Assembly: GCF_044647545.1 (NCBI RefSeq)
Contig: NZ_CP172818.1
DNA: 64,000 bases
Strand: one strand, 5' to 3'
From: Escherichia coli
GTDB taxonomy: Bacteria > Pseudomonadota > Gammaproteobacteria > Enterobacterales > Enterobacteriaceae
Every line of letters begins with the position of its first letter. The stretch's first letter is position 1. Made by a program: the position numbers and the translations under genes. The notes beneath the pieces are model-generated. The model was not told the DNA's origin, did not search any database, and worked only from the letters and a program-made list of their open reading frames with translations. Below are positions 2,732 to 55,963 of the stretch, piece after piece.

Positions 2732-3216
2732 TTAATTACCTTCACTCGCGCTTTTTCTCCCACCACCAGCGCGTTGTCCGGGACAGAGTCGAGCACCACG
2801 CTGCCCGCGCCCACGGTGACGTTGTTACCAAGCGTGATATCACCAAGAATAATGACGTTGGCACCGAGTTCGACGCCGTTGCCAATGTGTGGACATGCCA
2901 TGTTATCGGCACCACGATTGCCGATAGTGACGCCGTGGCGAATGGTGAAATCATCCCCCGCGACCACGTTTTTATTGATTACTACGGCGTAACCGTGATG
3001 GATAGTAAAGCGGCGGCCAATGGTCGCGGCAGCCTGGATTTCATAACCGAAAAAGCATTCGGTGATAATGCGATACAGCACCAGCAGCGGGGCCGCCCAC
3101 AGATTGTTGAGGACGTTCTTTTTGCGCCACACCGAACAAAAATGAGCGGCGCGATAGGCAAGAACCATGCAGCACGGGCGTAAACTCCAGCTGTTGGCGC
3201 GCAGATCTTCCAGCAT
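2728..3216 (-). CDS. wcaB: Colanic acid biosynthesis acetyltransferase WcaB (hexapeptide-repeat family)
   Basis: 162-aa ORF with left-handed beta-helix hexapeptide repeats (IGxxVxIxHGVTIGN...); 4-bp overlap with wcaC. Confidence 0.9.
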   Translation of the reverse strand: MLEDLRANSWSLRPCCMVLAYRAAHFCSVWRKKNVLNNLWAAPLLVLYRIITECFFGYEIQAAATIGRRFTIHHGYAVVINKNVVAGDDFTIRHGVTIGNRGADNMACPHIGNGVELGANVIILGDITLGNNVTVGAGSVVLDSVPDNALVVGEKARVKVIK

Positions 3217-8565: not shown

Positions 8566-10149
8566 ATGGAATGGATTGCCGATCCGTCTATCTGGGCTGG
8601 ATTAATCACGCTGATTGTGATCGAACTGGTCCTCGGCATTGATAACCTGGTCTTTATTGCCATCCTCGCCGAAAAACTACCGCCGAAGCAGCGCGACCGC
8701 GCACGGGTTACCGGGCTGCTGCTGGCGATGTTAATGCGCCTGTTACTGCTGGCGTCAATCTCCTGGCTGGTCACCCTGACTCAACCGCTGTTCAGCTTCC
8801 GCTCGTTTACCTTTAGCGCCCGCGACTTAATCATGCTGTTTGGTGGTTTCTTCCTGCTGTTCAAAGCCACGATGGAGCTGAACGAACGGCTGGAAGGGAA
8901 AGACAGCAATAACCCCACGCAACGCAAAGGTGCGAAGTTCTGGGGGGTGGTGACACAAATTGTGGTACTGGACGCCATCTTCTCACTCGACTCGGTGATT
9001 ACCGCCGTCGGGATGGTCGACCATTTACTGGTCATGATGGCCGCCGTCGTTATCGCTATCAGCCTGATGTTGATGGCCAGCAAGCCGTTAACGCAATTTG
9101 TTAACAGTCACCCGACGATCGTTATTCTCTGCTTAAGCTTCCTGTTGATGATTGGCTTTAGCCTGGTGGCAGAAGGTTTCGGCTTCGTCATTCCGAAAGG
9201 CTACCTGTACGCTGCTATTGGTTTCTCGGTGATGATCGAGGCGCTCAATCAGTTGGCTATCTTTAACCGGCGACGTTTTCTTTCCGCTAACCAGACGCTG
9301 CGCCAGCGAACTACCGAAGCGGTAATGCGCCTGTTAAGCGGGCAAAAAGAAGATGCGGAACTGGATGCCGAAACCGCGTCTATGCTGGTGGATCATGATA
9401 ATCAGCAAATCTTTAATCCGCAGGAACGGCGGATGATTGAGCGGGTACTTAATCTTAACCAGCGTACCGTCAGCAGCATTATGACGTCGCGCCACGATAT
9501 TGAGCATATCGATCTCAACGCACCGGAAGAAGAAATCCGCCAGTTGCTGGAGCGAAATCAGCACACGCGACTGGTGGTTACTGATGGCGATGACGCGGAA
9601 GATTTGCTCGGTGTTGTTCACGTTATCGACCTGTTACAACAGTCACTGCGCGGCGAACCGCTCAACCTGCGGGTGTTGATTCGCCAGCCGCTGGTGTTCC
9701 CGGAAACCTTGCCGTTGTTACCTGCCCTGGAGCAGTTCCGTAATGCCCGCACACACTTTGCTTTTGTAGTGGATGAGTTTGGCTCGGTGGAAGGGATTGT
9801 GACATTAAGTGACGTCACAGAAACCATTGCCGGTAACTTACCGAATGAAGTGGAAGAGATCGACGCCCGCCATGATATTCAGAAGAATGCCGACGGTTCC
9901 TGGACGGCGAATGGTCATATGCCGCTGGAAGATCTGGTGCAATATGTGCCGCTGCCGCTGGATGAAAAACGTGAATATCACACCATTGCCGGGCTATTGA
10001 TGGAATATTTGCAGCGTATTCCAAAACCTGGCGAAGAAGTTCAGGTGGGGGATTATTTGCTTAAAACGTTGCAGGTGGAAAGCCATCGCGTGCAGAAGGT
10101 GCAAATTATTCCGCTACGTAAGGATGGCGAGATGGAGTACGAGGTGTGA
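8566..10149 (+). CDS. yegH: Inner membrane protein YegH (TerC-like membrane domain with CBS and CorC/HlyC domains)
   Basis: ORF 8500..10149; start taken at [16 protein letters not shown] (ATG 8566), 527 aa; N-terminal transmembrane segments, C-terminal CBS pair. Confidence 0.85.
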
Positions 10150-10348
10150 TGGTATCAGTCATTTTACCCGATAGCCGAAAGGAATAAGATGAGGGAACCG
10201 CGCCAGCGGCGATTTACCGCCGGGAACCCGGGTTGCCAGGGTGGTGGCGATTGAGCCACCCTGGCACGTTCACCGGCTTAAGCGTTCCATAGTAGCGAGG
10301 AACATCAAGTGAACGGAACAGCCTTCGATCTTACATATTCAGAATATA

Positions 10349-10531
10349 ATGGTGCCGCCCGCTCGCGATGCTGATGGGATCTATCACGTCATGTATGTCG
10401 CAAAATTTGAAGAAGCGGTTTACGTATTGCATTGTTTTCAAAAAAAAACACAAACTACCAGTCAATCGGAAATTGATTTAGCCAAACGACGCTATAAAAA
10501 ACTTGTTCAGGAGGGGAAAAATAAAAATTAA
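10349..10531 (+). pseudogene. C-terminal remnant of a RelE/ParE-superfamily (HigB/Gp49-like) toxin
   Basis: 60-aa ORF ...GIYHVMYVAKFEEAVYVLHCFQKKTQTTSQSEIDLAKRRYKKLVQE carries the YVLHxFQKK motif of this toxin family; a stop lies immediately upstream in frame and no intact N-terminus or antitoxin is present. Confidence 0.45.
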
Positions 10532-10800
10532 AACCTTTGATAGTGGGTGGGATACGGTGAAGGACCCCCCTGAAGGAGGGGAAAAATTGGGGTTCGCGCC
10601 GGGTTGTAAAGAATAATTAAAAATGGAATGGAAAAAAAAGGGTTAGACCGGGTCGGAGAAATTTTCTTTTGGGGGGGTCACACACCCCCGTATTTTAAAT
10701 TCGACAAGGGGAAATCTCAATTTTTTATATATAAATAAATATAATATTATGGGCGCATATGGAGGTTCATATAATAAATATAAAAAATTAAAATACACAT
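10532..10800. repeat. Low-complexity, homopolymer-rich block (probable sequence artifact or insertion)
   Basis: Runs such as gaaggacccccctgaaggaggggaaaaattgggg, tttgggggggtcacacacccccg and AT-only stretches; composition unlike flanking E. coli DNA; no coding or RNA signature. Confidence 0.6.
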
Positions 10801-10820
10801 AGGCTTTATAGTAATAAAAA

Positions 10821-10850
10821 CAGATGGCGACAAATTGACGCCGCCATCTG
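10821..10850 (-). terminator. Probable rho-independent terminator downstream of asmA
   Basis: Inverted repeat cagatggcg...cgccatctg followed by a T-run on the minus strand (+ strand aaaaa at 10816-10820). Confidence 0.5.
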
Positions 10851-10861
10851 CATAACTTGTC

Positions 10862-12715
10862 TTACATCTTCTCCAGCAACTTCTTCACATCTTTGCCATT
10901 GCGGGAATCTTTATTCCGCTCGGCCCAGTCATTCAGGCGACGTTTCGCTTCGTCCTGTAGATGTTTGCGCAGTAACTGATCCACTTGCAGGCTGTAATTG
11001 AGTTGCTGCCAGTTGCCATAAACCCGCAGCGGTACTGGCGTTTCTTTGAGGAAATCAATCAGTTTGCTTTCTCCGTTCCAGCCACCAATCACACGAATGT
11101 CAAACTGGGTGTCGCAGGTTTGATCTGCCAGATTCAACATGCCTTCCCCTGTCAGCGCCAGCACTGGCGATTGACCTTGCATGTCGTTTAACGTCACGAC
11201 GCCATCCTTCAACGTCAAATCGGTGGTAAAGCGGTCAAGACGCGTTACGTTATCGAAGTTTTCAGCGGCCTTCACATCACCACCATTACGTTCTACCGCT
11301 TGCTGAATCATCTGCTGGAAGTTCATCCCTTCCATGCGCGTGTCGGTCATTTCGACATGTGCCTGTCCTTGCCAGTTATGGCGGAATGCGTCGGCATCTA
11401 TGTCAGCACCGGAGAAATCACCAGCCAGTGACATCTTTCCGGTCAACGAAATCGGATAGTTAAACGCCTTCAGAATGGTACCAATCTCAACGTTTTCCAG
11501 CCGTGGCTGGAAGTTTATCCGCGGATTTATTGATGTCGCGTCCAGCGTGCCCGGCAGCGAAACCTGTCCACCGTTAAGCTTGCCCTGCAGTTGAGTAATT
11601 TCCAGCAAACCCGACTTGTTGGTCATTTGCGTGGCAACGTCTGTAAAATTCATTCCGCGCCAGCGCACGTTACTGGCCTGCAACAAAATATCAGCCGTAA
11701 AGCCTTGCAATCCCTGATAGGCCGGTTCATCAATACGCGAAGAAATGACCGGGCGCGGCAACGTGGATTGGCTCTGCCCTTGCTGCGCGGCACCGTTTTC
11801 ACCGTTCGCTGTTTCTTTAAGCGGGATGAGGTTGTCAAGATTCAGTTGCGGGAATTGCAGTCTCAGCTGCCATTCCGGTTTCTCTGTCAGCGTGACCTGT
11901 GCTTGCCCGCTCAGCGTACTGTCATTGGCGGTCAAACTAATTTGGTTAAATGAAAGGCGTTTATGTGACTCCTGCCACTGGGCCTGGAAACTCCCCTGCC
12001 CCTGAATACCTTGTTTTGGTAAATCTGCACCCTGCAACTGCCAGTTAATTTGTTCAATAGCCGCCGTTAAATCATGCGGATAATCAGAAGCATCTACCGT
12101 ACCGTTAAGGGATATCGTGAGATCGCGCTGATCGCGATTAACCCGCCCGGAGAACTCAAATGAGCCACGATGTTGGGGATCTTGTTCCATTTGCAGGCGG
12201 ATATTGCGGATTGTCACCTGCTCGTCATCTTCATGCTGGAACACCAGCACGCTGTCCGCCACCTTAAGACTGGATATATCAAACGACCATCCGCGCTCGT
12301 CTGACAGATCCGGCAAGGTATTGTCGCGCGGTGCAACCGGAGCGTCTTCACTGCGCACTGCTTCCGTCTGCGGCGTCAGTTGGATCACTGCCCCTTTTAG
12401 CATCACCTGCTTAACGCTCAGTTGATGACTCAGTAGTGGTAAAAGCGCCACGTCCAGACGCATGTTGTCGGCGCGAACCAGTGGCTGGCTTGCGCCCTGG
12501 GCGGTGAGAGACATTCGCCCGGAGAGGATACTAAGCTGCGGCCAGACGTGCCAACGCAGTGGCCCGTCGAGCTGCAATTGATAACCGCTACGTGCAGCAA
12601 CTTGCTTGACCATATAGTCGCGGAAATCATTCGGATTCACCAGCAACACTAACGCAGATAACCCGGCCACCAGCACGACCAGGAGTATCATCAGCGTCGT
12701 CAGAAATCGTCTCAT
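10862..12715 (-). CDS. asmA: Outer membrane assembly protein AsmA
   Basis: 617-aa ORF with N-terminal membrane anchor (MRRFLTTLMILLVVLVAGLSALVLLVNPNDFRDY...). Confidence 0.9.
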   Translation of the reverse strand: MRRFLTTLMILLVVLVAGLSALVLLVNPNDFRDYMVKQVAARSGYQLQLDGPLRWHVWPQLSILSGRMSLTAQGASQPLVRADNMRLDVALLPLLSHQLSVKQVMLKGAVIQLTPQTEAVRSEDAPVAPRDNTLPDLSDERGWSFDISSLKVADSVLVFQHEDDEQVTIRNIRLQMEQDPQHRGSFEFSGRVNRDQRDLTISLNGTVDASDYPHDLTAAIEQINWQLQGADLPKQGIQGQGSFQAQWQESHKRLSFNQISLTANDSTLSGQAQVTLTEKPEWQLRLQFPQLNLDNLIPLKETANGENGAAQQGQSQSTLPRPVISSRIDEPAYQGLQGFTADILLQASNVRWRGMNFTDVATQMTNKSGLLEITQLQGKLNGGQVSLPGTLDATSINPRINFQPRLENVEIGTILKAFNYPISLTGKMSLAGDFSGADIDADAFRHNWQGQAHVEMTDTRMEGMNFQQMIQQAVERNGGDVKAAENFDNVTRLDRFTTDLTLKDGVVTLNDMQGQSPVLALTGEGMLNLADQTCDTQFDIRVIGGWNGESKLIDFLKETPVPLRVYGNWQQLNYSLQVDQLLRKHLQDEAKRRLNDWAERNKDSRNGKDVKKLLEKM

Positions 12716-17723: not shown

Positions 17724-18578
17724 CTACAATTCGGCTTCGTCTGGTTGCCAGCCTTCCGTATACCAGATATGCAACAGCGCATAAGAACGCCAGGGCTTCC
17801 AGCGTTCGGCATAACGGCGGATTTGTGCCGGTGTCATTCCCGGAAATCGCTGTTTAATCAGATAATCATCCGGCAGGAAAACATCTTTCGCCTGCCAGCC
17901 GCGCAAGGCGAAATAATTCGCCGTCCAGCGCCCGATACCCGGAAAAGTTTGAAGCGTTTTCATCGCTTGCTCTACGTCGCCCGGAATTGTCATTGATAAG
18001 GTGCCCTCCAGCGCCGCATTTGCCAGATGAATCAGTGCCTCTGCCCGTTTCAACGGCATACCTAACGCTTTTAATGCCTGCGGGTCGGCTGCAGCCAGCC
18101 GCTGAGGCGTGGGGAAGCAGACATAATCCGGAAAATCATCCAGCCGTTCGCCATAAAGCTGTGCCACTCTGGCGGTCAATTTTGCCGCCATCGCCACGCT
18201 CACCAGTTGGCCTAAAATCGCCCGCACGCCCTGCTCAAAAACATCAACACAACCAGGTAAACGCAATCCGGGCCGCGCTGCGCCTAACTCGCCCAACGCC
18301 CCATTAACAATCTGCGGGTTACATTGCAGATCAAACAGGCGGCTCATTTTCGCCAGACACTCAGCGGCAACAGGTTCTAAACCTGCACTTAAATTTATGT
18401 GCAGAGTATGGCTGGCTATATCCGGAATAGCAGTCACCACGCCGCGATATTCGCCCACCGCCAGACTACGGGCATAATAATCGTCAGCGACCGTTTCCAC
18501 ACCGTTCACCGCACGGGCGGCGAGAAATCCCAACATCCACGACCAGTCATATGGCGGCTGCCAGTTCAGGGTATACAT
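17724..18578 (-). CDS. alkA: 3-methyladenine DNA glycosylase II
   Basis: 284-aa ORF MYTLNWQPPYDWSWMLGFLAARAV... with helix-hairpin-helix glycosylase core. Confidence 0.9.
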   Translation of the reverse strand: MYTLNWQPPYDWSWMLGFLAARAVNGVETVADDYYARSLAVGEYRGVVTAIPDIASHTLHINLSAGLEPVAAECLAKMSRLFDLQCNPQIVNGALGELGAARPGLRLPGCVDVFEQGVRAILGQLVSVAMAAKLTARVAQLYGERLDDFPDYVCFPTPQRLAAADPQALKALGMPLKRAEALIHLANAALEGTLSMTIPGDVEQAMKTLQTFPGIGRWTANYFALRGWQAKDVFLPDDYLIKQRFPGMTPAQIRRYAERWKPWRSYALLHIWYTEGWQPDEAEL

Positions 18579-23430: not shown

Positions 23431-23611
23431 AAGAAATCCTTTCTTAGAGAATTATTGAGGTCCGGTATCATACCGATTGCAATAATGAAATAAGAGCAAA
23501 CGAAGAAACTTTCAGAATTAGGCCCGGCGGCGCAGAAAATTTTGCTATTCGCCTCGCAAGAACGGAGAGCCGTCGATTGACACTAAGGGCGGAGTGACAT
23601 AATTTCAGGAG

Positions 23612-23755
23612 TGAGGGTTAGGGAGAGGTTTCCCCCCTCCCCCTGGTGTTCTTAGTAAGCCTGGAAGCTAATCACTAAGAGTATCACCAGTATGATGACG
23701 TGCTTCATCATAACCCTTTCCTTATTAAAAGCCCTCTTCTCCGGGAGAGGGTTTC
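23612..23755 (+). ncRNA. sibA: SibA antisense sRNA (type I antitoxin of ibsA)
   Basis: Strong promoter ttgaca-N17-taattt at 23577-23605; transcript fully antisense to ibsA; terminator hairpin ccctcttctccgggagaggg + ttt at 23732-23754; ~144 nt. Confidence 0.6.
23652..23711 (-). CDS. ibsA: Type I toxin IbsA (19-aa hydrophobic peptide)
   Basis: Minus-strand ORF atgatgaagcacgtcatcatactggtgatactcttagtgattagcttccaggcttactaa = MMKHVIILVILLVISFQAY. Confidence 0.7.
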   Translation of the reverse strand: MMKHVIILVILLVISFQAY

Positions 23756-23947
23756 CCGTTTCAGCGTCCCGCTGAAATCGTCGGCTTACCTCCTTTCGCC
23801 CTGAATGCAGTCTATCGCTAACGCGTGAACAAAATAGTTTCCCCTGTGATTATTGCGTAACGTCTCGCAAAGAATATTTGCTCGCAGGATCGCAGACTAC
23901 AAAGCCTGCGGATTGACAATCTGATTGTGAAGGCATACTTTCAGGAG

Positions 23948-24083
23948 TGAGGGTAGAGCGGGGTTTCCCCCGCCCTGGTAGTCTTAGTATGCTGGCCAGC
24001 TAATCACTAAGAGCACCACGATGATGATCCACTTCATCATGACCCTTTCCTTATTTAAGGCCCCTTCCTCGGGAGGGGCTTTC
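23948..24083 (+). ncRNA. sibB: SibB antisense sRNA (type I antitoxin of ibsB)
   Basis: Promoter ttgaca-N17-tacttt at 23913-23941; antisense to ibsB; terminator hairpin ccccttcctcgggagggg at 24061-24078; ~136 nt. Confidence 0.6.
23984..24040 (-). CDS. ibsB: Type I toxin IbsB (18-aa hydrophobic peptide)
   Basis: Minus-strand ORF translating to MMKWIIIVVLLVISWPAY, paralogous to ibsA. Confidence 0.65.
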   Translation of the reverse strand: MMKWIIIVVLLVISWPAY

Positions 24084-35813: not shown

Positions 35814-36044
35814 TGACGATGCCGGGCGTGGGTTGTTGGCGTCCGGCTTTATATCAAAACAACTCTTATTTATTGATAATTAAGATTAACCTCCGCCATT
35901 AAAATATGGGCACTGACGAGCACTCGTTTCTTTCTTTTTTACCATCCCATACTTATCTTCCTGAATATGTTCATATGCCAAAATATCTTCTAATACTTTC
36001 GACCTACCGGTTTATGAAATACACTGATGAAGATTTTTACTTAC

Positions 36045-36545
<501 letters not shown>

Positions 36546-38015: not shown

Positions 38016-38099
38016 TTAATTTCGATTATTTTTCCCGGATGGAAAATTCTTAGAAACCGATCACATACAGCTGCATTTATTAAGGTTATCATCCGTTTC

Positions 38100-38190
38100 G
38101 CTGAAAAACATAACCCATAAAATGCTAGCTGTACCAGGAACCACCTCCTTAGCCTGTGTAATCTCCCTTACACACACGGGCTTATTTTTT
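38100..38190 (+). ncRNA. cyaR: CyaR (RyeE) Hfq-dependent sRNA
   Basis: gctgaaaaacataacccataaaatgctagctgtaccaggaaccacctccttagcctgtgtaatctccc...gggcttatttttt matches CyaR as I recall it, including the terminator hairpin and U-tail. Confidence 0.8.
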
Positions 38191-40940: not shown

Positions 40941-41981
40941 TCAGGGAATGAGCAACACTTTGCCCGGCATAGCATTACGAGCGATGTCACGCACCGCCTG
41001 GGCGAAGCTTTCAAAGCTTCCACGGTGAGCGATTAATGGCTCCAGGCTTAACTTACGTTCTGTCAGCAACCGGCTCGCCGTTTCCCACTCCTGCCCCGGC
41101 CAAGGGCTGGAGTAGTTCATCCAACTGCCGATAACCGTCAGCTCTTTACGCAATATTTTGCCAAACGTTGCCGATGTTAAATGCAGATCCTGATGCAACG
41201 TGCCCACCAGCGCCAGCTGGGCATGAGGCCCGGCAATCTCTACCGCCAGTTCGACGGTTTGCGGGACGCCAGCCGTCTCGAGGATAAGCTGATTAAAGCG
41301 CAGCTCGCGTAAAACGCCCTGCATTTGCGGCGCGCTCATTTCAAGGCTGTTAAATGTTTGCATCGCACCGAAAGATTTTGCCAGTGCCAGTTTTTCTGAG
41401 CTAATGTCGATAGCCGTCACACTCTTTGCTCCCAGCGCGACAGCGCACTGAATGGCCAGCAGGCCAATGGTTCCGGCACCAATAATAATAACGTTTTTAT
41501 TCTCACAACCTTGCGCTAAATGAAAAGCATGCAGGCCAACGGTAATCGGTTCAATAAAAGCCCCTTCCTCAATAGGCATATCCGCAGGTAGAGCAAAGAC
41601 ATTTTTCCGCTTAACGACAATATATTCGGCAACCCCACCATCACGCCGTGAGCCAATAAAATCATATTTTGCGCACTGGGAATAAAACCCTTTCAGACAC
41701 TCTGGACAAGTAAAACAGGGTAATAACGGCACACAGGCAACCGCATCGCCAGGATGTAAATCATCAACACCGGATCCCACCGCATCAATATAGCCGCTAA
41801 ATTCATGGCCTAACGTTATTGGATAATAATGTGCACCATTTTTAAATATCCTGGGTAAATCGGAACCACATACGCCCGAGCTGGCAATTTTTACCCGCAC
41901 CTCATCCTGATGATTAATTTCAGGAATGACTCGTTCTTCAACGCGCACGATACCATCAGTATCATTCACCACTGATTTCAT
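40941..41981 (-). CDS. gatD: Galactitol-1-phosphate 5-dehydrogenase (Zn-dependent MDR family)
   Basis: 346-aa ORF with Zn-ligand Cys/His pattern (GVCGSDL, GHEFSG) and Rossmann GxGxxG (IIGAGTIG). Confidence 0.9.
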   Translation of the reverse strand: MKSVVNDTDGIVRVEERVIPEINHQDEVRVKIASSGVCGSDLPRIFKNGAHYYPITLGHEFSGYIDAVGSGVDDLHPGDAVACVPLLPCFTCPECLKGFYSQCAKYDFIGSRRDGGVAEYIVVKRKNVFALPADMPIEEGAFIEPITVGLHAFHLAQGCENKNVIIIGAGTIGLLAIQCAVALGAKSVTAIDISSEKLALAKSFGAMQTFNSLEMSAPQMQGVLRELRFNQLILETAGVPQTVELAVEIAGPHAQLALVGTLHQDLHLTSATFGKILRKELTVIGSWMNYSSPWPGQEWETASRLLTERKLSLEPLIAHRGSFESFAQAVRDIARNAMPGKVLLIP

Positions 41982-55745: not shown

Positions 55746-55963
55746 CTCAATCCTTTAGGCTTGCATGTTATCTTCAGCCCAGGATGATTCTTAAATCAGC
55801 TATTTCCGCTGACTCTCTGCTCGCTAAGGATGCTTTTAGAGCATCCTTTCATTTACACTTTTTACGAAATCATGGGATCACTAACAAAATATCGCTTGTC
55901 AGTTATATTGTATGGCAGGAAAGATATGCGACTGATATTACAGATCCCCAAAGTGGAGAGTTT

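What the first reader, a model, noticed from the sequence alone, without database searches (positions are those of the whole stretch)
10150..10531. Orphan RelE/ParE-like (HigB/Gp49-type) toxin C-terminal fragment downstream of yegH
The 60-aa ORF at 10349-10531 carries the C-terminal signature of RelE/ParE-superfamily toxins (VYVLHCFQKKTQ...IDLAKRRYKKL), but an in-frame stop lies directly upstream and the preceding ~200 bp does not encode a recognisable N-terminal half in any frame I could read. No cognate antitoxin is visible. This looks like a decayed type II toxin-antitoxin locus, or one partly overwritten by the adjacent low-complexity block. I do not recall an annotated gene here in K-12, so it may be an unannotated relic.
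Basis: partly seen in the sequence, partly recalled or inferred. Interest (0 to 1): 0.5.

Follow-up and report, generated by a model that had tools for sequence, protein, structure and literature searches.

The report
Truncated toxin gene, garbled antitoxin neighbour
This is the dead 3' half of a known HigB/Gp49-type toxin gene, already annotated as a pseudogene in related E. coli; its antitoxin partner lies right next to it and is unreadable here only because the stretch looks like an assembly error, so the finding is ordinary.

Summary
The 60-aa ORF (10349-10531) is real. It matches the C-terminal half of Pfam Gp49 (RelE/ParE superfamily; model 46-90 of 90, E 2.4e-15). The 200 bp upstream is the K-12-type yegH-asmA spacer, not a toxin N-terminus.

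"Orphan" is wrong. The cognate helix-turn-helix antitoxin gene starts at 10521.

Among 5,426 complete E. coli genomes:
- about 793 carry the intact toxin-antitoxin operon at this site (for example O157:H7);
- about 116 carry this truncated toxin, annotated as a pseudogene by RefSeq, in the three inspected with an intact 96-aa antitoxin;
- the rest, including K-12, carry neither.

In this window, 10444-10819 is scrambled. Mismatches to relatives rise from 0 to about 40% left to right, then stop abruptly at 10820. Substitutions preferentially copy a neighbouring base. No complete genome shares the block. A second block with the same signature sits on the parDE locus at 35907-36544.

All other private differences in the window lie at structural breakpoints relative to K-12, carry the K-12 state, or are a homopolymer miscount. 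One SNP (41633) could not be placed. I infer a K-12-templated consensus assembly that mangled long insertions.

Verdict: a known pseudogene plus a data artefact. Low interest.

The parts
10150..10359 (+). K-12-type yegH-asmA spacer. It takes the place of the toxin promoter and codons 1-57. It contains an 11-bp-stem hairpin at 10234-10266.
   Evidence: Colinear with K-12 up to 10359. No Rfam match. Hairpin. Median of one matching place per genome for the 801-nt query that contains it.
10360..10360 (+). An extra C at the junction, absent from the three truncated-locus relatives read. It puts the ATG at 10349 in frame with the toxin fragment and so creates the 60-aa ORF.
   Evidence: Absent from L001, L004 and L005.
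10364..10531 (+). 3' fragment of a Gp49/HigB-like RelE/ParE toxin gene: codons 58-112 plus the stop. A pseudogene.
   Evidence: Pfam Gp49 46-90/90, E 2.4e-15. Colinear with O157:H7 toxin WP_001227701.1. Annotated as a pseudogene in relatives.
10521..10809 (+). Cognate antitoxin gene (HTH_37/XRE type, 96 aa in relatives). Here the start codon reads ATA and the frame is broken by stops, because the sequence is scrambled.
   Evidence: Alignment to L001 2099-2389. Translation. Residual N-terminal match E 2e-9. The intact homologue hits Pfam HTH_37 at E 5e-22.
10444..10819 (.). Scrambled block 1. The mismatch rate to relatives climbs from about 7% to 30-47%, then drops to 0 at 10820. Substitutions are biased towards copying a neighbouring base and making homopolymers.
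   Evidence: 69 of 96 substitutions copy a neighbour where 47 are expected (p 6e-6); Spearman rho 0.83. No complete genome matches it above 72.7% identity.
10820..10851 (-). Terminator-like hairpin just downstream of asmA. Perfect identity with relatives resumes at its base.
35907..36544 (.). Scrambled block 2, covering the parD/parE toxin-antitoxin insert between yegP and yegQ. It has the same signature and degenerates into poly-G and poly-A runs.
   Evidence: 146 of 191 substitutions copy a neighbour where 84 are expected (p 1e-19); rho 0.72; 64 nt missing.

Best explanation
The locus is a decayed copy of a chromosomal type II toxin-antitoxin operon that sits between yegH and asmA in part of the E. 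coli population.

Intact form (for example O157:H7). A 112-aa Gp49/HigB-like RelE/ParE-superfamily toxin gene comes first. It overlaps by 11 nt a 96-aa antitoxin gene with an HTH_37/XRE DNA-binding domain. By family knowledge (inferred, not tested here), the toxin is a ribosome-dependent mRNA endonuclease. The antitoxin binds and neutralises it and represses the operon.

Form in the window's lineage. The promoter and toxin codons 1-57 are replaced by the K-12-type spacer. What remains is a 55-codon toxin stump, which cannot form the fold and has lost the operon's own upstream region, so I treat it as a pseudogene. The antitoxin gene is intact in the three close relatives inspected.

The low-complexity stretch. 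In this window, 10444-10819 (the last 90 nt of the toxin stump and the whole antitoxin gene) is not biological decay but an error in the source record. The most likely origin is a consensus made by piling error-prone reads of a strain close to FDAARGOS_497/ECONIH1 onto a K-12 reference. Long insertions relative to K-12 are stacked from the left without realignment. Read registers then drift, errors grow from left to right, bases smear into their neighbours, and accuracy returns abruptly where reference-anchored alignment resumes.

Shown: homology, truncation, population census, the error signature, and the coincidence with K-12 breakpoints. Inferred: toxin biochemistry and the exact pipeline that made the artefact.
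For: Toxin identity:
- The fragment hits Pfam Gp49 46-90/90, E 2.4e-15.
- The intact O157 homologue hits 1-90/90, E 1.5e-30.
- PHROG 2523 matches both.

Antitoxin identity:
- HTH_37 at E 5e-22.
- PDB 2a6c at E 3.4e-14.

Synteny and annotation:
- Intact pair in O157:H7.
- Pseudogene plus intact antitoxin in CFSAN061771, FDAARGOS_497 and ECONIH1.
- Neither gene in K-12.

Census of 5,426 complete genomes:
- Antitoxin gene in 910.
- Toxin 5' half in 793.
- 116 cover at least 80% of the window-type arrangement.

Artefact:
- The flanks are 99.99-100% identical to relatives.
- The mismatch gradient rises 0 -> 0.07 -> 0.3-0.47 -> 0.
- Neighbour-copy excess has p 6e-6 in block 1 and p 1e-19 in block 2. 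A naturally divergent yehA allele used as a control shows none (149 observed, 150 expected) and no gradient.
- These two blocks are the only outliers above 3.5 SD in same-neighbour fraction across the 64 kb.
- The block is absent from all 5,426 complete genomes.

K-12 template:
- Both blocks lie inside insertions relative to K-12.
- Private indels at 17734, 22021, 38170 and 46443 sit 0-4 nt from K-12 structural junctions.
- The yehA block is 100% K-12, yet no complete genome matches across its junctions better than 99.3%.
- SNPs at 3199 and 57443 carry the K-12 base, and a C7 run is called C6 at 59573.
- A private protein variant of the window is recorded on a contig of only 4.50 Mb.
Against: - The source record and its assembly method could not be retrieved. 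The pipeline explanation is therefore inference from pattern.
- Block 1 recovers 43 nt, and block 2 about 14-18 nt, before clear K-12 homology resumes. This needs the extra assumption that those last bases were aligned against the K-12 REP or spacer sequence.
- The private pphC variant exists in NCBI with UniRef n=4. At least some of the private differences may therefore be real lineage markers.
- The absence of the 170-bp element and the IS110 insertion could equally be a natural empty site.
- No experiment shows that the toxin stump is untranslated. In relatives it has a GTG with a Shine-Dalgarno-like GAGGAA.
Confidence: 0.85

Rival explanations
1. The scrambled block is real. In this strain the antitoxin gene (and the parDE locus) has undergone localised, polar hypermutation or slippage-driven decay after the toxin was lost.
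For: - Both scrambled blocks fall on toxin-antitoxin cassettes.
- At least one other private difference of the window, the pphC frameshift, exists in a public NCBI protein record. The source is therefore a real deposited genome, and not every oddity need be an error.
Against: - About 100 substitutions occur in 375 bp, while the surrounding ~62 kb differs from relatives at fewer than 10 sites.
- The pattern has a left-to-right gradient, an abrupt end, a neighbour-copy bias and register-preserving changes.
- The substitution spectrum is broad, with A the least mutated base, so it is not adenine-specific DGR-type mutagenesis and not deaminase-like.
- The block is found in none of 5,426 complete genomes.
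- Both blocks coincide with insertions relative to K-12, and the other private errors sit at K-12 breakpoints.
Confidence: 0.04
2. The block is an artefact of a different kind: a low-quality read tail (late Sanger, or flow-based dephasing) used once to close a gap. It is not a K-12-templated consensus.
For: Progressive loss of accuracy, undercalls followed by homopolymer runs, and an abrupt junction with good sequence are classic features of read tails.
Against: - It does not explain why both blocks lie inside K-12-absent insertions.
- It does not explain why the small private indels sit on K-12 structural junctions, or why yehA is 100% K-12 in a background otherwise identical to FDAARGOS_497.
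- From my own knowledge of accession numbering, WP_400165266.1 looks like a recent deposit rather than a Sanger-era genome.
Confidence: 0.1
3. The toxin stump is not inert. In relatives it is translated from the GTG that has a GAGGAA Shine-Dalgarno sequence (73 aa), or here from the ATG (60 aa). It would act as a small protein, for example by titrating the antitoxin or as a partial toxin.
For: - An open frame with a plausible ribosome-binding site exists in L001, L004 and L005.
- The stump differs from the O157 toxin by only one residue over 55.
Against: - Only the C-terminal 49% of the domain remains.
- The native promoter region is gone, and no promoter-like site was found upstream.
- The start codon context differs between the window and its relatives because of the extra C at 10360.
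- PGAP calls it a pseudogene.
- The low divergence is equally explained by a recent truncation.
Confidence: 0.05
4. In relatives (not readable in this window), the retained antitoxin is a functional orphan. It would act as an anti-addiction factor against incoming Gp49-type toxins, or as a stand-alone repressor. That would explain why it stays intact after the toxin was lost.
For: - The antitoxin is annotated as intact in 3 of 3 inspected truncated loci.
- By my count on alignment A1, the truncated-locus allele and the O157 allele differ at 7 nucleotide positions, of which only one changes an amino acid (I/V).
Against: - The operon promoter was deleted with the toxin 5' half.
- No promoter-like site was found upstream in the window.
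- The synonymous excess cannot be assigned to the branch that follows the truncation.
- Intactness may simply reflect a recent event.
Confidence: 0.25

Closest known systems
RefSeq/PGAP pseudogene 'type II toxin-antitoxin system RelE/ParE family toxin' (CA902_RS08570, EGY17_RS24965, ECONIH1_RS12180) with the adjacent HTH protein WP_000687871.1 / WP_022645843.1
   Same: - Same locus, between yegH and asmA.
- Same truncation point and same upstream spacer.
- Nucleotide sequence identical up to 10443, apart from the extra C at 10360.
   Different: - In the window the last 90 nt of the stump and the whole antitoxin gene are scrambled.
- The window lacks the 170-bp element, with or without the IS110-family insertion, that these relatives carry just after yegH.
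Intact toxin-antitoxin pair of E. coli O157:H7 at the same site (toxin WP_001227701.1, 112 aa; antitoxin WP_000687872.1, 96 aa)
   Same: - Same chromosomal position.
- Same gene order (toxin first), with an 11-nt overlap.
- The toxin residues 58-112 are identical except for one residue.
   Different: O157 keeps its own upstream region (a hairpin after yegH, then the start of the operon) and codons 1-57. The window and K-12 have an unrelated ~200-bp spacer there instead.
HigB/HigA-type modules with solved structures (PDB 6af3 HigB-HigA; from my own knowledge also Vibrio cholerae HigB2-HigA2, a Gp49-family toxin)
   Same: - Toxin-first gene order.
- RelE/ParE-superfamily toxin paired with an XRE-type HTH antitoxin.
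- The conserved C-terminal motif (hhF.K+TQKTp..ei..A) aligns with 6af3_A residues 93-134.
   Different: - Sequence similarity to solved structures is weak: E 0.01 for the toxin and 0.29 for 6af3_B.
- No activity data exist for this E. coli pair, and no paper was found.
- The toxin scores below the curated cut-off of NCBIfam TIGR02683 (27 against 62.85 bits).
E. coli K-12 HigB-HigA (ygjN-ygjM), from my own knowledge
   Same: Same reversed gene order and the same general mechanism class.
   Different: It is at a different locus, and to my knowledge belongs to a different Pfam toxin family (not tested here). K-12 has nothing at the yegH-asmA site.

Membership tests
Pfam Gp49 (PF05973), RelE/ParE toxin superfamily | Significant match to the family profile | tested here: met
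   The 60-aa ORF matches at E 2.4e-15, model positions 46-90 of 90. The intact homologue matches at E 1.5e-30, positions 1-90 of 90.
Pfam Gp49 (PF05973), RelE/ParE toxin superfamily | Complete domain, that is a foldable toxin | tested here: not met
   Only the C-terminal half of the model is covered. The upstream DNA is the K-12 spacer, not toxin codons.
Type II toxin-antitoxin operon (HigBA-like arrangement) | Adjacent, overlapping cognate antitoxin gene with a DNA-binding domain, toxin gene first | tested here: met
   In relatives the toxin stop overlaps the antitoxin start by 11 nt, and the antitoxin hits HTH_37 at E 5e-22. In the window the same gene sits at 10521-10809 but is scrambled.
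Type II toxin-antitoxin operon (HigBA-like arrangement) | Own promoter or operator upstream of the first gene | tested here: inconclusive
   The O157-type upstream region is replaced. A simple sigma-70 scan finds no + strand site upstream of 10349, but it also finds none in the intact O157 locus, so the scan is uninformative.
Type II toxin-antitoxin operon (HigBA-like arrangement) | Toxin inhibits growth (mRNA cleavage on the ribosome) and the antitoxin neutralises it | not testable with these tools
   No experimental paper on this pair was found.
NCBIfam TIGR02683 (upstrm_HI1419, RelE/ParE family toxin) | Score above the curated cut-off of 62.85 bits | tested here: not met
   The intact homologue scores 27 bits. 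The 60-aa fragment gives no hit.
Diversity-generating or other targeted hypermutation (considered for the scrambled block) | Base-specific substitution spectrum (adenine-specific for DGRs) without a positional gradient | tested here: not met
   The spectrum is broad and A is the least mutated base. There is a strong left-to-right gradient and a neighbour-copy bias.

The most novel reading that the evidence does not exclude
The two scrambled blocks are genuine. In that case this lineage has a polar, locus-restricted mutational process that homopolymerises toxin-antitoxin cassettes (10444-10819 and 35907-36544) while leaving the surrounding ~62 kb essentially unchanged.
Probability: 0.03. Interest if true: 0.8.

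Novelty: already known. Interest (0 to 1): 0.08.

Why it matters
Biologically it matters little. It is one more decayed chromosomal toxin-antitoxin module, already annotated in related genomes, at a site that is polymorphic in E. coli: intact pair, truncated toxin with antitoxin, or nothing.

The practical value is as a warning. This window appears to come from a reference-templated consensus. Its strain-specific insertions are garbled, and its most divergent allele reverts to K-12. Other "odd" features in the same source, such as low-complexity blocks, frameshifts at indel junctions and K-12-identical patches, should be treated as suspect before any biological reading.

Tried and rejected
- NCBIfam scan of the 60-aa peptide gave no hit. 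Pfam and PHROGs did.
- Rfam on 9900-11000 gave only a chance sub-threshold hit, so the 200-bp spacer is not a known RNA.
- Literature searches for yegH/asmA/toxin-antitoxin, and for guessed O157 locus tags, found nothing.
- Three attempts to identify the source record failed: an exact 40-mer from the scrambled block against GTDB representative genomes gave 0 hits; an exact-protein lookup found only the private pphC variant, WP_400165266.1, on a 4.50-Mb contig, whose DNA could not be fetched; and no complete genome carries the 22021 deletion.
- An apparent third divergent block at 23.5-24.5 kb was a BLAST cross-match between the two ibs/sib repeats. The region is identical to relatives.
- The divergent block at 56468-57441 proved to be a natural yehA allele, and I used it as a control.
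- I first favoured a late Sanger or flow-sequencing read tail for the scrambling. I demoted that idea once the coincidence with K-12 structural breakpoints emerged.
- DGR-type and deaminase-type hypermutation were rejected on the substitution spectrum.

Full report
**What is there**

The window is the E. coli wza-yegH-asmA-dcd-udk region. The ORF at 10349-10531 (60 aa, + strand) exists.
- It matches Pfam Gp49 (PF05973, RelE/ParE superfamily) over model positions 46-90 of 90, with E 2.4e-15.
- It matches PHROG 2523 over positions 58-106 of 108.
- NCBIfam gave no hit for the fragment.

**The syntenic locus in other E. coli**

A megablast of 10100-10900 against 5,426 complete genomes showed three states of the yegH-asmA spacer.
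- **Intact operon**, as in O157:H7. A 112-aa toxin (Gp49 1-90/90, E 1.5e-30) overlaps by 11 nt a 96-aa antitoxin. The antitoxin hits HTH_37 at E 5e-22 and PDB 2a6c at E 3.4e-14.
- **Truncated toxin with intact antitoxin**, as in CFSAN061771, FDAARGOS_497 and ECONIH1. RefSeq annotates the toxin remnant as a pseudogene 'missing N-terminus'.
- **K-12 state.** Neither gene is present, only a ~200-bp spacer and a REP-like sequence.

Counts: the antitoxin gene is in 910 genomes and the toxin 5' half in 793. The difference is 117, which agrees with the 116 genomes that cover at least 80% of the window-type arrangement.

The window belongs to the truncated state.
- The K-12-type spacer runs to 10359.
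- The toxin sequence resumes within codon 57, so codons 58-112 remain.
- The spacer matched at a median of one place per genome (for the 801-nt query that contains it), has no Rfam match, and contains one 11-bp-stem hairpin.

**The antitoxin is present but unreadable**

The antitoxin gene starts at 10521. In the window the start codon reads ATA and stops break the frame, yet the first 23 codons still match (13 of 23 identical, E 2e-9).

Aligned to CFSAN061771:
- The window is identical from 10361 to 10443.
- Mismatches then appear at about 5-10% (10441-10560).
- They rise to 28-47% (10561-10819).
- They fall to zero at 10820.
- 69 of 96 substitutions copy an adjacent base where 47 are expected (p 6e-6).
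- Runs of four or more identical bases go from 3 to 15.
- A is the least-mutated base.

No complete genome has this block at more than 72.7% identity, although dozens are 100% identical over the 5.1 kb immediately to the right.

**Is the scrambling biological?**

I compared the whole window with FDAARGOS_497. Outside a few sites the identity is 99.99-100%.

A second block, at 35907-36544, covers a parD/parE cassette between yegP and yegQ. It behaves the same way:
- It begins with single-base losses.
- It then shows neighbour-copy substitutions (146 of 191 where 84 are expected, p 1e-19).
- It then degenerates into poly-G and poly-A runs.
- It returns abruptly to perfect sequence.

These two blocks are the only outliers above 3.5 SD in same-neighbour fraction across the 64 kb.

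A naturally divergent allele in the same window, yehA at 56468-57441, serves as a control. It shows no gradient and no neighbour-copy excess (149 observed, 150 expected).

A natural process is very unlikely to give about 100 polar, register-preserving, neighbour-copying changes in 375 bp, twice, in a genome that otherwise differs from its relatives at fewer than 10 sites in about 62 kb.

**Likely origin of the artefact (inference)**

Every difference I could place between the window and its near-identical relatives is tied to K-12.
- Both scrambled blocks lie inside insertions relative to K-12.
- The 1.56-kb insertion that the closest relatives carry after yegH (a 170-bp element holding an IS110-family element) is missing, as in K-12.
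- The yehA block is 100% identical to K-12 strains, while its flanks are 100% identical to FDAARGOS_497. No complete genome matches across those junctions better than 99.3%.
- The private small indels at 17734, 22021, 38170 and 46443 sit 0-4 nt from junctions of indels relative to K-12.
- The SNPs at 3199 and 57443 carry the K-12 base, and a C7 run is called C6 at 59573. The K-12 state of the SNP at 41633 could not be determined.
- The window's private PphC variant is recorded in NCBI on a contig of only 4.50 Mb.

This fits a consensus made by stacking indel-prone reads on a K-12 template. Long insertions pile up left-justified and drift out of register. Insertions too long to align are dropped. 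Alleles too divergent to map stay K-12. I could not retrieve the source record to confirm this.

**Consequences for the finding**

- The 60-aa ORF as such is partly an accident. Its ATG is in frame only because of an extra C at 10360, which is absent from the three relatives read. There the frame is open 81 nt further up, with a GTG preceded by GAGGAA.
- Its last four amino-acid differences fall in the onset of the scrambled block.
- The underlying feature, a 5'-truncated Gp49/HigB-like toxin gene next to its antitoxin, is real, recurrent and already annotated.

**Mechanism**

For the intact operon the mechanism follows from family knowledge and was not tested here. The toxin is a RelE/ParE-fold ribosome-dependent mRNase. 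An antitoxin with an XRE-type HTH domain neutralises it and probably autoregulates the operon.

The stump retains 49% of the domain and has lost the operon's own upstream region, so I consider it dead.

The retained antitoxin in relatives may be a functional orphan. By my count on alignment A1 it differs from the O157 allele at 7 nucleotide positions, with one amino-acid change. This is weak evidence and cannot be examined in this window.

**Verdict**

Novelty: already known. Interest is low. The main useful outcome is a flag on the quality of the source sequence.

Noticed in passing
window 35907-36544: A second scrambled block covers a parD/parE type II toxin-antitoxin cassette between yegP and yegQ. 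This cassette is intact in FDAARGOS_497 and absent from K-12. The block degenerates into long poly-G and poly-A runs, then snaps back to perfect sequence at 36545.
   Followed up: yes
window 56468-57441: The yehA fimbrial adhesin block is 100% identical to K-12 strains, while both flanks are 100% identical to FDAARGOS_497, which carries a yehA allele matching at only about 58% of aligned positions. No complete genome matches across the junctions (55900-58000) better than 99.3%.
   Followed up: yes
window 59573 (ORFs 57434-59515 and 59434-59928, minus strand): The yehB usher gene is split by a 1-nt loss in a C run. The window has C6, relatives have C7, and K-12 has CCCACCC. It looks like a homopolymer miscount rather than a real pseudogene.
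   Followed up: partly
window 22021: A 1-nt deletion lies exactly at the junction where the K-12 yegJ segment is absent. It changes the end of pphC to give a 262-aa variant. That variant exists in NCBI as WP_400165266.1 (UniRef n=4), but in none of the 5,426 complete genomes.
   Followed up: partly
window 38170-38173, inside the CyaR sRNA (Rfam match 38098-38187): A private ACAC insertion sits in the 3' part of CyaR, at the junction where the K-12 ogrK/P2-remnant segment is absent. It is probably another junction error.
   Followed up: partly
window 17734 and 46443: A private 3-nt deletion and a private 1-nt deletion (G5 to G4) relative to otherwise identical relatives. Each is within 1 nt of an indel junction relative to K-12.
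   Followed up: partly
window 10165-10172; L001 1523-1700; L004 795-2352: Just after yegH, relatives carry a ~170-bp element flanked by an 8-bp direct repeat, TACCCGAT. In FDAARGOS_497 and ECONIH1 an IS110-family element (transposase WP_000868863.1) is inserted inside it. The window and K-12 show the empty site. The 12 best-matching truncated-toxin genomes listed all had the element.
   Followed up: partly
L001 1888-2109 (equivalent to window ~10309-10531); L003 ~1757-1816: In truncated-locus relatives, a GTG preceded by GAGGAA opens a 73-aa frame that fuses 18 spacer-encoded residues to the toxin stump. In K-12 the same GTG opens a 19-codon ORF, going by my reading of the printed sequence. 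Expression is unknown.
   Followed up: no
window 23577-23726 and 23913-24055: Two Sib antitoxin RNAs (Rfam RF00113), with the ibs type I toxin genes opposite. This is the known K-12-like tandem pair, and it is identical to relatives.
   Followed up: yes
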